DNA of 63,458 nucleotides. Source: Candidatus Staskawiczbacteria bacterium. GTDB taxonomy: Bacteria; Patescibacteriota; Minisyncoccia; Minisyncoccales; Staskawiczbacteraceae. The notes below the pieces were generated by a model that was given only the letters and a program-made list of their open reading frames with translations, was not told where the DNA came from and ran no database searches. Positions within the stretch are counted from its first letter, which is position 1, and each line of letters begins with the position of its first letter. The stretch is from assembly GCA_026395215.1 (NCBI GenBank), contig JAPLZC010000012.1, positions 1-63,458 on the forward strand. Reading direction: 5' to 3'. Position numbers and translations under genes: made by a program. Positions 33,988-34,751 of the stretch are shown one piece after another.

Positions 33988-34100
33988 AAATAAATAAACT
34001 TAGTTCGACTAAATTACTCCATTATACCACCTACACATTTTCCTTCAAGCCAGTTTCTTCACATCATAAGTCCCACAAGTTGTAAGCAAACACAAATTAT

Positions 34101-34136
34101 AGTACTCTTTTTCGGCTCGAGCCAAAAAAACGTACT
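34101..34136. repeat. 36-nt long-stem palindrome, left inverted repeat of PaaX-like cassette 1
   Basis: AGTACTCTTTTTCGGCTC|GAGCCAAAAAAACGTACT. Overlaps the stop codon of 34135..34710. Confidence 0.8.
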
Positions 34137-34710
34137 ACATCCGGAAGTGTACCTTAAGTCTATCTTGGTTGTCTATAAAATCTAGCAATCCAAACCGAAC
34201 ATATTTTTCAAGCTTAAACAATTTTATAAAGTCATCAATTTCTTTTTTACAATCATAAGGGTGTAGGAAAATGCTTTCCTGTAATTCATAAAATCCGCCC
34301 ATTTTAAGCCTATAATTTAAAGCATTCCTACCCTTTCTGCACTCATTTGGTATGTCAAAAGCCACCATCCGCCATTTACCGTCCCATTTTTCTTTCTTGT
34401 TAGCCAACCTCCTAAACCTATAATTAATCGCCCGCAACCTCCCCTTCTCAGTCAATGAAACCAAAACAGAGCCTTCATAGCCCTTCTTTTTCCCTGCCTG
34501 CGCAGGCAGGTCAATTAATTTATACCTTTTAAGATCAACAACAGCCCTCCGTAATTGCTTGCCGGTAAAATTATGTATATCTTTTATAATGTCATTTATA
34601 ATAAAAAACCTCGCGTCACCATGCCCACCAATATGGGCGTGATCGGTCTGGTAATATATACTCCACAATATTTCATCCAAAATCTTATTCATACATTTAT
34701 TATACACCAT
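34135..34710 (-). CDS. wHTH + PaaX-middle/Cas2-fold domain protein (PaaX-like), paralog of 49986..50558
   Basis: WDGKWRMVAFDIPNECRKGRNALNYRLKMGGFYELQESIFLHPYD matches the PaaX/Cas2-like ferredoxin-fold pattern, with an N-terminal winged-helix-like segment. M7 may be the true start. Confidence 0.65.
   Translation of the reverse strand: MVYNKCMNKILDEILWSIYYQTDHAHIGGHGDARFFIINDIIKDIHNFTGKQLRRAVVDLKRYKLIDLPAQAGKKKGYEGSVLVSLTEKGRLRAINYRFRRLANKKEKWDGKWRMVAFDIPNECRKGRNALNYRLKMGGFYELQESIFLHPYDCKKEIDDFIKLFKLEKYVRFGLLDFIDNQDRLKVHFRM
34493..34510. repeat. 18-nt perfect GC-rich palindrome in frame
   Basis: CCTGCCTGC|GCAGGCAGG encodes LPAQAG. Confidence 0.75.
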
Positions 34711-34721
34711 TTTCTATTTAT

Positions 34722-34751
34722 AGTACGTTTTTTCGGCTCGAGCCAAAAAAC
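34722..34751. repeat. right inverted repeat of PaaX-like cassette 1
   Basis: AGTACGTTTTTTCGGCTCGAGCCAAAAAAC is nearly the reverse complement of 34101-34136. It lies 12 nt upstream of ATG 34710. Confidence 0.8.

What the first reader, a model, noticed from the sequence alone, without database searches (positions are those of the whole stretch)
34099..34751. PaaX/Cas2-fold wHTH gene bracketed by hairpin-forming inverted repeats (cassette 1, between rpoC and ftsK)
Reading outward from the gene, both flanks read TAGTACGTTTTTT(T/C)GGCTCGAGCC(G/A)AAAAA (34136 to 34101 reversed; 34720 to 34751). This makes them ~33-bp terminal inverted repeats, and each is itself a long-stem palindrome with T-run and A-run arms around GGCTCGAGCC. 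The unit is ~650 bp with one 191-aa ORF. Its C-terminal half (WDGKWRMVAFDIP...RN.L...L...GF..LQ.S.F..P) has the PaaX-middle/Cas2-like ferredoxin-fold pattern, including the beta1 Asp used by Cas2 nucleases. TIRs plus one small nucleic-acid-binding protein is the size and layout of a minimal insertion sequence. Alternatively the palindromes are cognate operators or insulating bidirectional terminators.
Basis: partly seen in the sequence, partly recalled or inferred. Interest (0 to 1): 0.7.

Follow-up and report, generated by a model that had tools for sequence, protein, structure and literature searches.

The report
Small regulator gene bracketed by palindromes
A small gene for a DNA-binding protein with a Cas2-like domain sits between two copies of its own long palindrome, an arrangement shared by most of a large protein family in the tiny-genome Patescibacteria; it is inherited at fixed chromosomal sites rather than jumping, and nothing describing it turned up in four literature searches.

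Summary
A 185/191-aa gene (34135..34692/34710, minus strand) lies between two copies of TAGTACG-T6-GGCTCGAGCC-A6. A paralogous cassette at 49944-50659 carries a different palindrome.

The protein has a winged-helix N-terminus and a PaaX_M/Cas2-fold C-terminus. The beta1 Asp is conserved in 80 of 81 relatives.

Across 79 related Patescibacteria loci, 70 carry the same 30-60 bp element on both flanks, against 4 of 241 control genes.

The insertion-sequence reading fails:
- there is no transposase domain;
- the two copies are oriented inconsistently, more often direct than inverted;
- the cassettes are syntenic across genomes (rpoC-ftsK, pilin-pilD, dnaE-rnhB).

The palindromes do not meet the tool's intrinsic-terminator criteria.

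The upstream copy sits about 47 bp before a leaderless TGnTATAAT promoter. The downstream copy abuts the stop codon.

Best reading (about 0.5): a cognate palindrome-binding autoregulator whose sites bracket its own gene.

A rival remains open (about 0.2). Identical solo copies occur elsewhere, some in frame inside genes and absent from orthologues. Dyad symmetry is kept by compensated changes. This resembles REP/RAYT systems, but with a Cas2-fold protein.

The parts
34100..34137 (.). Downstream palindrome A of cassette 1 (TAGTAC-TC-T5-C-GGCTCGAGCC-A-A6-CG-TACTA). It overlaps the stop codon of the gene.
   Evidence: As sense-strand RNA it folds at -21 kcal/mol (z -5.5) against -11.8 for the antisense strand. 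A promoter-like TTGGCT-18-TATAAT lies inside it, pointing towards ftsK.
34135..34692 (-). Gene for a 185-aa protein with a winged-helix N-terminus and a PaaX_M/Cas2-fold C-terminus. The longest ORF extends to 34710 (191 aa).
34699..34707 (-). -10 box GTGTATAAT, 6 nt before the ATG at 34692. This implies a leaderless mRNA. Relatives carry TGnTATAAT at the same place.
   Evidence: read from sequence; no transcript data
34721..34751 (.). Upstream palindrome B of cassette 1 (TAGTACG-T6-C-GGCTCGAGCC-A6). Its centre is about 47 bp before the inferred transcription start. The distal outer arm is missing.
49944..49983 (.). Downstream palindrome of cassette 2 (AATAGTCGCG-T6-GCTGGAGGC-A5-CATGACTATT)
49986..50558 (-). 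Paralogous 190-aa gene (cassette 2). Its C-terminal 114 aa are 71% identical to cassette 1. The N-terminus has diverged.
50620..50659 (.). Upstream palindrome of cassette 2 (AATAGTCGCG-T5-GCCTCCAGC-A6-TGCGACTATT). Its asymmetric centre is inverted relative to the downstream copy.
   Evidence: TGGTATAAT lies at 50603-50595 on the minus strand.

Best explanation
The unit is a vertically inherited gene for a small PaaX-like DNA-binding protein, together with two copies of the long dyad-symmetric site that the protein recognises. It is not a mobile element.

Proposed mechanism (inferred):
- The protein forms a homodimer through its Cas2-fold domain.
- The conserved Cas2-fold dimer sits on the GC-rich centre of the palindrome. 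That centre is similar across the whole family (CTCGAG, CGATCG, GCTATAGC, CGCTATCGCG and others).
- The two fast-evolving winged-helix domains read the outer arms, which differ between paralogues.
- The upstream site covers the -35 region of the gene's own leaderless promoter, giving autoregulation, most likely repression.
- The second site at the stop codon could pair with the first to loop the gene. Alternatively it could act as a bound roadblock that shields the gene and its neighbour from read-through.
- Solo copies elsewhere in the genome would be further targets.

Shown:
- The fold.
- The family-wide pairing of gene and palindromes.
- The positions relative to the promoter and the stop codon.
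- Paralogue-specific palindromes.
- Synteny.

Inferred: DNA binding, dimer geometry, repression, and looping or insulation.
For: (1) Domains.
- PaaX_M at E 4e-19.
- Winged-helix HTH_27 in 14 of 28 N-termini.
- AF2 C-terminal ferredoxin fold at pLDDT about 88.
- Foldseek hits to Cas2 and to E. coli PaaX 8a39 over 154 columns, probability 0.98.
- PaaX proteins are repressors that bind operators (established knowledge).

(2) Association.
- The same element lies on both flanks in 70 of 79 family genes, against 4 of 241 control genes.
- Palindromes scoring 12 or more number 81 within 150 bp of family genes, against 41 in the remaining roughly 580 kb.

(3) Specificity.
- Paralogues in one genome carry different palindromes: window cassettes 1 and 2, and L001/L009/L025 of one assembly.
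- Palindrome similarity tracks protein similarity, rho about 0.5.

(4) Position.
- In about 15 of the 20 Staskawiczbacteria-clade loci examined, the upstream centre lies 46-53 bp before the start inferred from a TGnTATAAT box. In about half of them an ATG follows that box within 6-8 nt.
- The downstream copy lies 0-25 nt after the stop, whatever the distance to the next promoter.

(5) Inheritance. rpoC-cassette-ftsK is seen in at least 7 genomes. pilin-cassette-pilD is seen in 5. dnaE-cassette-rnhB is seen in 6 genomes of different lineages.

(6) Family size. 2,163 clusters at 50% identity match at E <= 1e-10. Almost all are 180-200 aa.
Against: - Whole 40-64 bp palindromes are self-complementary even where the two copies of one locus differ. 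There are 35 compensated pair changes against fewer than 1 expected (L047, L054, L059). A dimer reading two half-sites does not require this. It points to hairpin or cruciform formation, or to quasipalindrome correction.
- Solo copies can be identical over 41 bp (L082, L086, L098). Some lie in frame inside genes and are absent from orthologues. That looks more like a spreading repeat than a regulon.
- Solo copies show no fixed relation to promoters.
- The beta1 Asp of Cas2 nucleases is conserved in 80 of 81 relatives. This is unexplained if the domain only dimerises.
- No binding or expression data exist. The metatranscriptomes were too sparse to use.
Confidence: 0.5

Rival explanations
1. REP/RAYT-like system with a different enzyme. 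The palindromes are hairpin elements that are copied to new sites. The bracketed gene is their single-copy, vertically inherited partner. It recognises the hairpin through the winged helix and the conserved loop-proximal core. It processes the hairpin with the Cas2-fold domain, using the conserved beta1 Asp.
For: - The gene is flanked by its cognate palindromes, each paralogue has its own type, and inheritance is vertical. These are the hallmarks described for RAYTs and REPs (PMC3116915, read; abstracts).
- Solo copies are identical over 41 bp in contigs of one metagenome. One lies on the same 88-kb contig as the cassette (L082, L086, L098, L096/L099).
- Solo copies lie just after stop codons of groEL, recG, atpD and rpoC.
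- In-frame copies in rnhB and in a membrane protein are absent from orthologues.
- A 3' solo after the RNase J-like gene in L101 is absent from the window.
- Dyad symmetry is kept by compensated changes.
- The Asp is conserved in 80 of 81 relatives.
- The asymmetric loop TATC is mostly on the sense strand in the CGCTATCGCG group.
- There are weak strand biases in mismatches.
Against: - Copy numbers are low. There are no solo copies of either type in the 63-kb window. There is one exact GGCTCGAGCC-type site in a 422-kb contig. There is roughly one solo per 60 kb in 580 kb of loci.
- There is no HUH/Y1 domain, and no Cas2-fold protein is known to move DNA on its own.
- The fixed spacing of the upstream copy to the promoter is what an operator would show.
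- Quasipalindrome correction during replication could keep the symmetry without any enzyme.
Confidence: 0.2
2. RNA-level device. The palindromes act as hairpins in transcripts, at the 3' ends of the upstream gene and of the cassette gene. The Cas2/VapD-like domain binds or cuts these hairpins. This would give post-transcriptional autoregulation or a toxin-like RNase held in check by its own winged-helix domain.
For: - Cas2 and VapD relatives are among the fold hits (3exc RNase SSO8090, VapD 3ui3 and 6zi1).
- The downstream copy of cassette 1 is far more stable as sense RNA (-21 against -11.8 kcal/mol).
- On the sense strand, G:T mismatches number 20 against 9 A:C (p 0.06), and T:T 18 against A:A 4.
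- The downstream copy abuts the stop codon.
Against: - The upstream copy lies before the inferred transcription start. It is present even when the upstream gene is divergent (L024-L026).
- Cassette 2 shows no strand bias in folding energy.
- The identity of the two copies is not needed for plain RNA hairpins.
- The N-terminus is a DNA-binding type of domain.
Confidence: 0.1
3. Protein-independent punctuation. The palindromes are lineage-specific bidirectional terminators or insulators. They flank this gene only because it sits between strongly expressed operons.
For: - Solo copies lie 10-25 nt after stop codons of unrelated genes.
- The outermost bases are A-rich on the left and T-rich on the right (AAATAGT...ACTATTT).
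Against: - Occurrence next to family genes is about 48-fold enriched, and the two flanks share sequence in 70 of 79 loci against 4 of 241 controls.
- The palindromes are paralogue-specific.
- None of the four window palindromes is called a terminator. The T-run precedes the stem.
- Classical terminators stand next to them: 34772-34809 after rpoC, and L002, L006.
Confidence: 0.05
4. Minimal insertion sequence. The palindromes are terminal inverted repeats and the protein is the transposase.
For: - The size and layout fit: about 650 bp, one ORF, repeats at both ends.
- At the rpoC-ftsK site L012 carries a cassette-2-like protein (56% identity) although rpoC is 88% identical.
- L081 has no cassette there.
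Against: - No transposase domain is present.
- Orientation of the copies is direct in 21, inverted in 18 and equal in 6. It is mostly direct when the element is asymmetric.
- No identical copies of the whole unit were seen. Paralogues within one genome are 40-70% identical.
- Synteny holds over deep divergence.
- No target duplications are evident at either window cassette.
Confidence: 0.02

Closest known systems
PaaX-family repressors (phenylacetate catabolon regulator; structures 8a39, 3kfw)
   Same: Both have an N-terminal winged helix followed by the PaaX_M Cas2-like domain, with a WDGKW-type motif before beta1. Both are expected to bind dyad-symmetric DNA near a promoter.
   Different: - This protein has no PaaX_C domain and is about 180 aa rather than about 300.
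- There are no paa genes nearby.
- The TIGR02277 score is 29.6 against a cut-off of 264.
- The sites are 30-64 bp full palindromes, present on both sides of the gene, with solo copies elsewhere.
REP/REPIN-RAYT systems of Proteobacteria (PMC3116915, PMC3337134)
   Same: In both, a single-copy, vertically inherited gene is flanked by its cognate palindromes. Several gene/palindrome types can share one genome. Extra palindromes lie in extragenic space near the 3' ends of genes.
   Different: - The protein has a Cas2 fold, not an HUH/Y1 transposase.
- Copy numbers are a handful rather than tens to hundreds.
- Copies are single palindromes, not REP doublets.
- Some copies lie in frame inside genes.
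Cas2 / VapD
   Same: Shared b-a-b-b-a-b ferredoxin fold, with the acidic residue at the end of beta1 conserved. There is weak profile similarity: TIGR01573 at E 0.002 and PADLOC Cas2 at E 4e-4.
   Different: - The domain is fused to a winged helix.
- No cas1, CRISPR array or antitoxin lies next to it. The neighbours are rpoC and ftsK, or pilin genes and pilD.
- All matches are below the family cut-offs.
Rickettsia palindromic elements (from memory, not tested)
   Same: Short palindromic sequences found in frame inside protein-coding genes of a reduced genome, as in rnhB of L028/L026 and in the membrane protein of L095/L100.
   Different: The elements here are much shorter, 36-54 bp. They are tied to a specific flanked gene. 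No homology was tested.

Membership tests
Insertion sequence with terminal inverted repeats | Encodes a transposase (DDE, HUH, serine or tyrosine type) | tested here: not met
   Only PaaX_M and winged-helix domains were found. There were no transposase hits in Pfam, NCBIfam, PHROGs or PADLOC.
Insertion sequence with terminal inverted repeats | Ends are inverted repeats in a consistent orientation | tested here: not met
   Direct 21, inverted 18, equal 6. Asymmetric elements are mostly direct (L018, L026, L048, L024, L046).
Insertion sequence with terminal inverted repeats | Variable location, multiple near-identical copies, target-site duplication | tested here: not met
   Positions are syntenic in three contexts. 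Paralogues are 40-70% identical. No duplication was seen at the window cassettes.
PaaX family repressor | PaaX_M central Cas2-like domain | tested here: met
   PF20803 at E 4e-19, 68.8 bits against a cut-off of 24. All 28 aligned members match.
PaaX family repressor | N-terminal winged-helix DNA-binding domain | tested here: inconclusive
   HTH_27 is found in 14 of 28 members, best E 5.7e-5. The AF2 N-terminus has low confidence. The PaaX N-terminal model gave no hit.
PaaX family repressor | PaaX_C domain and full-length equivalog score; linkage to paa genes | tested here: not met
   The protein ends after the PaaX_M domain. TIGR02277 scores 29.6 bits against a cut-off of 264.55. The neighbours are rpoC and ftsK.
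REP/RAYT system | RAYT: IS200-like Y1 HUH transposase | tested here: not met
   No HUH domain is present. The one IS200-like tnpA seen (L086) is a separate gene, and no other copy was found in any locus.
REP/RAYT system | Gene flanked by its cognate palindromes; vertically inherited single copy per type | tested here: met
REP/RAYT system | Palindromes dispersed in many extragenic copies | tested here: inconclusive
   Solo copies exist: 17 of 22 metagenome loci, and one on the same contig as a cassette. They are few per contig, and none lies in the 63-kb window. No complete genome could be scanned.
Cas2 | Ferredoxin fold with a conserved Asp at the end of beta1 | tested here: met
Cas2 | Part of a cas operon or CRISPR locus; passes the family score | tested here: not met
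   TIGR01573 scores 18.4 bits against a cut-off of 24.5. No cas1 lies next to either cassette.
Intrinsic (bidirectional) terminator | GC-rich hairpin directly followed by a U-run | tested here: not met
   None of the four palindromes is called by the scan. The T-run precedes the stem and the A-run follows it on both strands.
Autoregulatory operator | Dyad site at a fixed position overlapping the gene's own promoter | tested here: met
   The centre lies 46-53 bp before the inferred start in most Staskawiczbacteria-clade loci. In other clades the site abuts the -10 box. The promoter is inferred from sequence only.
Autoregulatory operator | Bound by the encoded protein, with an effect on transcription | not testable with these tools
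   This needs EMSA or footprinting and reporter assays.

The most novel reading that the evidence does not exclude
A REP/RAYT-like partnership built on a different protein. Hairpin-forming palindromes spread by copying within Patescibacteria genomes, including in frame into genes. A domesticated, vertically inherited winged-helix/Cas2-fold nuclease recognises and processes them, and its gene is always bracketed by its own palindrome type. This would be the first DNA-mobilising role for a stand-alone Cas2-fold protein. It would also be a possible evolutionary link between Cas2 and repeat-handling.
Probability: 0.2. Interest if true: 0.85.

Novelty: new variant of a known kind. Interest (0 to 1): 0.62.

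Why it matters
Patescibacteria have tiny genomes and very few recognisable regulators. Here a family of more than 2,000 sequence clusters of 180-aa proteins turns out to have a strict genomic signature. Each gene is bracketed by its own long palindrome, with several orthogonal protein/palindrome pairs per genome.

If the proteins are repressors, this gives a ready-made map of cognate protein-site pairs for an uncultured phylum. It also gives a set of orthogonal parts.

If the palindromes are copied by the protein, it is a new kind of domesticated repeat system. It would then give a function to the Cas2 fold outside CRISPR.

Either way, it also explains some of the odd in-frame insertions seen in Patescibacteria proteins.

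Tried and rejected
- Metatranscriptome contigs (X10-X12) were laid on 31500-38500. Coverage was too sparse to map transcript ends.
- DNA-run contigs (X1, X3, X4, X7) were checked for excision or cassette-free forms. The joints seen are explained by related strains and paralogues that carry the same 23-nt core.
- Rfam found nothing on the window or on nine loci with ORF-less gaps next to cassettes, apart from two tRNAs. The gap in L007 holds a small gene with its own promoter, bracketed by palindrome copies 2 and 3.
- An IS200-like tnpA next to one solo palindrome (L086) was tested as a general partner. No other copy was found in any locus or in the window.
- The idea that the downstream palindrome is simply the next gene's operator was rejected. 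The palindrome keeps its place at the stop codon while its distance to the ftsK or pilD promoter varies. It is also present when the next gene is convergent.
- The idea that the palindromes are promoters was tested. The tool finds a promoter-like match in only one of the four window palindromes. In some other clades the core TTGACGATCGTCAA and the arm ends do look like face-to-face promoters. This is left open.
- PDB sequence searches with the family profile and with the C-terminal domain gave nothing significant.
- Literature searches for PaaX with Cas2-like, Patescibacteria or palindrome returned no paper. A fourth PaaX search listed only general phenylacetate-pathway papers, which were not read.
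- An alignment meant to define the exact boundaries of the in-frame palindrome in the membrane protein was not precise enough.
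Full report
**1. What is in the window**

Between rpoC (34812..38387, minus strand) and ftsK (31687..33987, minus strand) lies one ORF on the same strand, 34135..34710 (191 aa). rpoC carries the NADFDGDQM motif. ftsK carries a Walker A motif and a gamma domain.

Gene callers and all homologues start at the second Met, at 34692 (185 aa, MNKILDEILW...).

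The ORF is flanked by two elements:
- 34100-34137, TAGTACTCTTTTTCGGCTCGAGCCAAAAAAACGTACTA, which contains the stop codon;
- 34721-34751, TAGTACGTTTTTTCGGCTCGAGCCAAAAAAC.

The 20-nt core with its runs occurs only at these two places in 63 kb. Chance expectation is 0.04.

The same search, with mismatches allowed, exposed a second cassette. It is a 190-aa paralogue at 49986..50558 (minus strand), between pilin genes and the prepilin peptidase gene. Its flanks are AATAGTCGCG-T6-GCTGGAGGC-A5-CATGACTATT (49944-49983) and AATAGTCGCG-T5-GCCTCCAGC-A6-TGCGACTATT (50620-50659).

The two proteins are 71% identical over the C-terminal 114 residues. Their N-termini are barely alignable.

**2. The protein**

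- Pfam gives PaaX_M ('PaaX central Cas2-like domain') at E 4e-19.
- NCBIfam gives sub-threshold PaaX and Cas2 matches.
- PADLOC gives weak Cas2 matches.
- Half of the aligned relatives hit the winged-helix model HTH_27 in the N-terminus.
- AlphaFold2 on a 28-sequence alignment gives a confident C-terminal b-a-b-b-a-b domain (pLDDT about 88) and a poorly defined N-terminus.
- Foldseek against the PDB returns Cas2 proteins, E. coli PaaX (8a39, 154 aligned columns), Rv0674 (3kfw) and VapD. Probability is up to 0.99, but E-values are only about 0.02-0.1.
- The Asp at the end of beta1 (AFDIP) is present in 80 of 81 relatives.

The family is large. 2,163 clusters at 50% identity match at E <= 1e-10, nearly all 180-200 aa long. 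Named members are 'Candidatus Staskawiczbacteria' and other Patescibacteria.

**3. The flanking pair is a property of the family**

Eighty loci with relatives (30-77% identity) were fetched from species-representative genomes. All are Patescibacteria, with several paralogues per genome.

A palindrome scan showed a 30-64 bp near-perfect palindrome upstream and just downstream of most of them. The palindrome differs from locus to locus.

Quantified:
- Palindromes scoring 12 or more number 81 within 150 bp of the family genes, against 41 in the remaining roughly 580 kb.
- An orientation-blind test for a shared element between the two flanks scores 16 or more in 70 of 79 family genes, against 4 of 241 other genes in the same loci.
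- Loci first scored as lacking palindromes (L018, L026) do carry a 37-38 nt repeat on both flanks. Its dyad symmetry has decayed.

**4. Not an insertion sequence**

Four results count against the insertion-sequence reading.

(a) No transposase-type domain is present.

(b) The two copies are not consistently inverted. With 52-nt windows the counts are direct 21, inverted 18 and equal 6. Where the element is clearly asymmetric the copies are mostly direct.

(c) The cassettes are syntenic:
- rpoC-cassette-ftsK in L001-L005, L012 and (rpoC side only) L018;
- pilin-cassette-pilD in L011, L013, L014, L017;
- dnaE(-)-cassette-rnhB in six genomes from different lineages.

(d) Paralogues within a genome are old (40-70% identity), and each has its own palindrome.

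Two observations hint at turnover at the rpoC-ftsK site:
- L012 carries a cassette-2-like protein and palindrome there, although its rpoC is 88% identical to the window's.
- L081 has rpoC, one solo palindrome, an unrelated 101-aa gene and then ftsK, with no family gene.

**5. Not classical terminators**

On both strands the T-run comes before the stem and the A-run after it. The consensus scan calls none of the four palindromes a terminator.

rpoC has its own A7-GACCG...CGGTC-T7 hairpin at 34772-34809, right next to palindrome B. Several relatives have a classical terminator after the downstream palindrome.

**6. Position**

In the Staskawiczbacteria clade the upstream palindrome is followed 20-27 nt later by TGnTATAAT. 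In about half of the 20 loci examined an ATG follows within 6-8 nt. This implies a leaderless mRNA and puts the palindrome centre at about -46 to -53, covering the -35 region. In the window the -10 box is GTGTATAAT at 34707-34699.

In other clades the -10-like box abuts the right arm, and cores such as TTGACGATCGTCAA look like two face-to-face -35 boxes.

The downstream copy is tied to the stop codon (0-25 nt). It is not tied to the next gene's promoter, whose distance varies. For example, the ftsK promoter TTGAAG-16-TATAAT at 34048-34021 is separate. The downstream copy is also present when the next gene is convergent.

**7. Symmetry is maintained in its own right**

Within a locus the two copies can differ while each stays a perfect palindrome. 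Examples are L047, L059, and L054 with 46-nt and 64-nt perfect palindromes that share only GCTATAGC.

Over 46 loci, at positions 2-16 from the centre, there are 35 compensated base-pair differences between copies against 86 single-arm differences. Fewer than one compensated difference is expected if the arms changed independently.

This indicates intrastrand pairing, either as hairpin or cruciform formation or as quasipalindrome correction during replication. It goes beyond two protein half-sites.

Strand-specific signals are weak:
- G:T mismatches number 20 against 9 A:C on the sense strand (p 0.06), and T:T 18 against A:A 4.
- The cassette 1 downstream copy folds at -21 kcal/mol as sense RNA against -11.8 as antisense.
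- Cassette 2 shows no such bias.

**8. Solo copies**

A metagenome scan for T5-N-GGCTCGAGCC-N-A5 returned 22 loci. Only about five sites adjoin a family gene. A profile search of all six frames confirmed that the rest do not.

The solo copies share the consensus AATAGT-NNN-T6-core-A6-NNN-ACTATT. They mostly lie 10-25 nt after stop codons of groEL, recG, atpD and rpoC.

One 88-kb contig holds a cassette (L096/L099) and a third site with the same arms (L086). Two more contigs from the same metagenome carry the identical 41 bp (L082, L098).

Some copies lie in frame inside genes:
- rnhB of L028 holds a third copy of the local cassette's palindrome, read as RHNLRYRVNYDD.
- rnhB of L026 holds another.
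- Both are absent from the rnhB orthologues of L024, L025 and L027.

A membrane protein downstream of ftsK carries ...QNSxFFGSSQKT... in L095, L100, L090 and L087. The window's orthologue (30732..31673) does not.

A solo copy after the RNase J-like gene in L101 is absent from the window at 23952.

Numbers per genome appear small:
- none in this window;
- one exact site in a 422-kb contig;
- roughly one solo per 60 kb of loci.

**9. Interpretation**

The data establish a cognate, co-inherited protein-palindrome pair. Palindrome similarity tracks protein similarity at rho about 0.5, though this is not independent of phylogeny.

The most economical mechanism is a PaaX-like homodimer that binds the palindrome. 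The conserved Cas2-fold dimer would sit over the family-wide GC-rich centre. The variable winged helices would contact the variable arms. The upstream site would autoregulate a leaderless promoter. The stop-codon site would serve as a second anchor, for looping or as a roadblock.

I put this at about 0.5.

Four features are better explained by a REP/RAYT-like partnership with a Cas2-fold enzyme, at about 0.2:
- identical solo copies;
- in-frame insertions;
- presence/absence differences between orthologues;
- the conserved catalytic-type Asp.

The REP/RAYT features are taken from PMC3116915 and the abstracts.

RNA-level action (0.1), protein-independent punctuation (0.05) and an insertion sequence (0.02) are less likely.

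**10. Novelty**

No paper in the searchable library links PaaX-type proteins with Cas2-like domains, Patescibacteria or flanking palindromes. A fourth PaaX search listed only general phenylacetate-pathway papers, which were not read.

The gene family is annotated at most as 'PaaX' or 'hypothetical'.

I classify the finding as a new variant of a known kind: a PaaX-like DNA-binding regulator with an unusual, family-wide bracketed-palindrome architecture. There is a substantial chance that it is something more unusual.

**Caveats**

- The loci were retrieved through the WDGKWRM and FYE[LM]QES[ILV]F motifs.
- Promoter and start-site assignments are sequence inferences.
- Solo sites come from metagenome contigs whose organism of origin is not certain.
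- No complete genome could be scanned.

Noticed in passing
window 34493-34510: An 18-bp perfect GC-rich palindrome, CCTGCCTGCGCAGGCAGG, lies in frame inside the cassette 1 gene. It encodes the 6-residue insertion (LPAQAG) that all homologues lack.
   Followed up: partly
window 49944-50659: A second cassette of the same family sits between pilin genes and the prepilin peptidase gene. It has its own, different palindrome pair. The asymmetric centre is inverted between the two copies.
   Followed up: yes
L028 4508-5281; L026 4532-5236: The RNase HII genes next to the cassettes carry several in-frame palindromic insertions. These include a copy of the cassette palindrome and a GC-rich one, GCCCCGCCACAGCGGAGTCCCGCTGTGGCGGGGC. 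They are absent from orthologues in L024, L025 and L027.
   Followed up: partly
window 30732-31673 (minus strand) compared with L095 1298-2404, L100 3801-4433, L090, L087: The membrane protein encoded after ftsK has an 11-residue insertion, made by a GGCTCGAGCC-type palindrome, in four relatives but not in the window. The window keeps a sequence that resembles only the right half of the palindrome.
   Followed up: partly
window 34772-34809: A classical bidirectional terminator-like hairpin, A7-GACCG...CGGTC-T7, lies directly after rpoC and next to palindrome B.
   Followed up: no
window 34692-34707, 50595-50603, 34021-34048; loci: Many genes here appear leaderless. A TGnTATAAT box lies 6-8 nt before the ATG in the cassette genes of about half of the loci examined and in the pilD genes. 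The ftsK promoter TTGAAG-16-TGgTATAAT is conserved across relatives.
   Followed up: partly
L086 14008-14576: A solo palindrome after groEL is followed by an IS200/IS605-type tnpA (143 aa, HVHILI motif) with its own GC-rich hairpin. It is the only such gene in more than 100 loci.
   Followed up: partly
L007 4566-5136: A third copy of the cassette palindrome closes a second bracket around a small gene. The gene encodes an 83-aa lipoprotein-like product. It has its own TTGACA-17-TATCAT promoter and a higher G+C content.
   Followed up: partly
L081 2897-3470: The rpoC-ftsK spacer is variable. This relative has one solo palindrome, then a GC-rich 101-aa gene with its own promoter and terminator, in place of the cassette.
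   Followed up: partly
L020 about 4600-4770: A long tandem array of the heptamer TTTAGTT lies between the downstream palindrome and the next gene, which is rmuC-like.
   Followed up: no
window 17467-17493 and 60498-60530: Two other strong palindromes of a different type are present: TCGGTGGGATGTCCGACATCCCACCGA and AAAGTTGTTCGACGTCGGACGTCGAACAACTTT. They were not examined.
   Followed up: no
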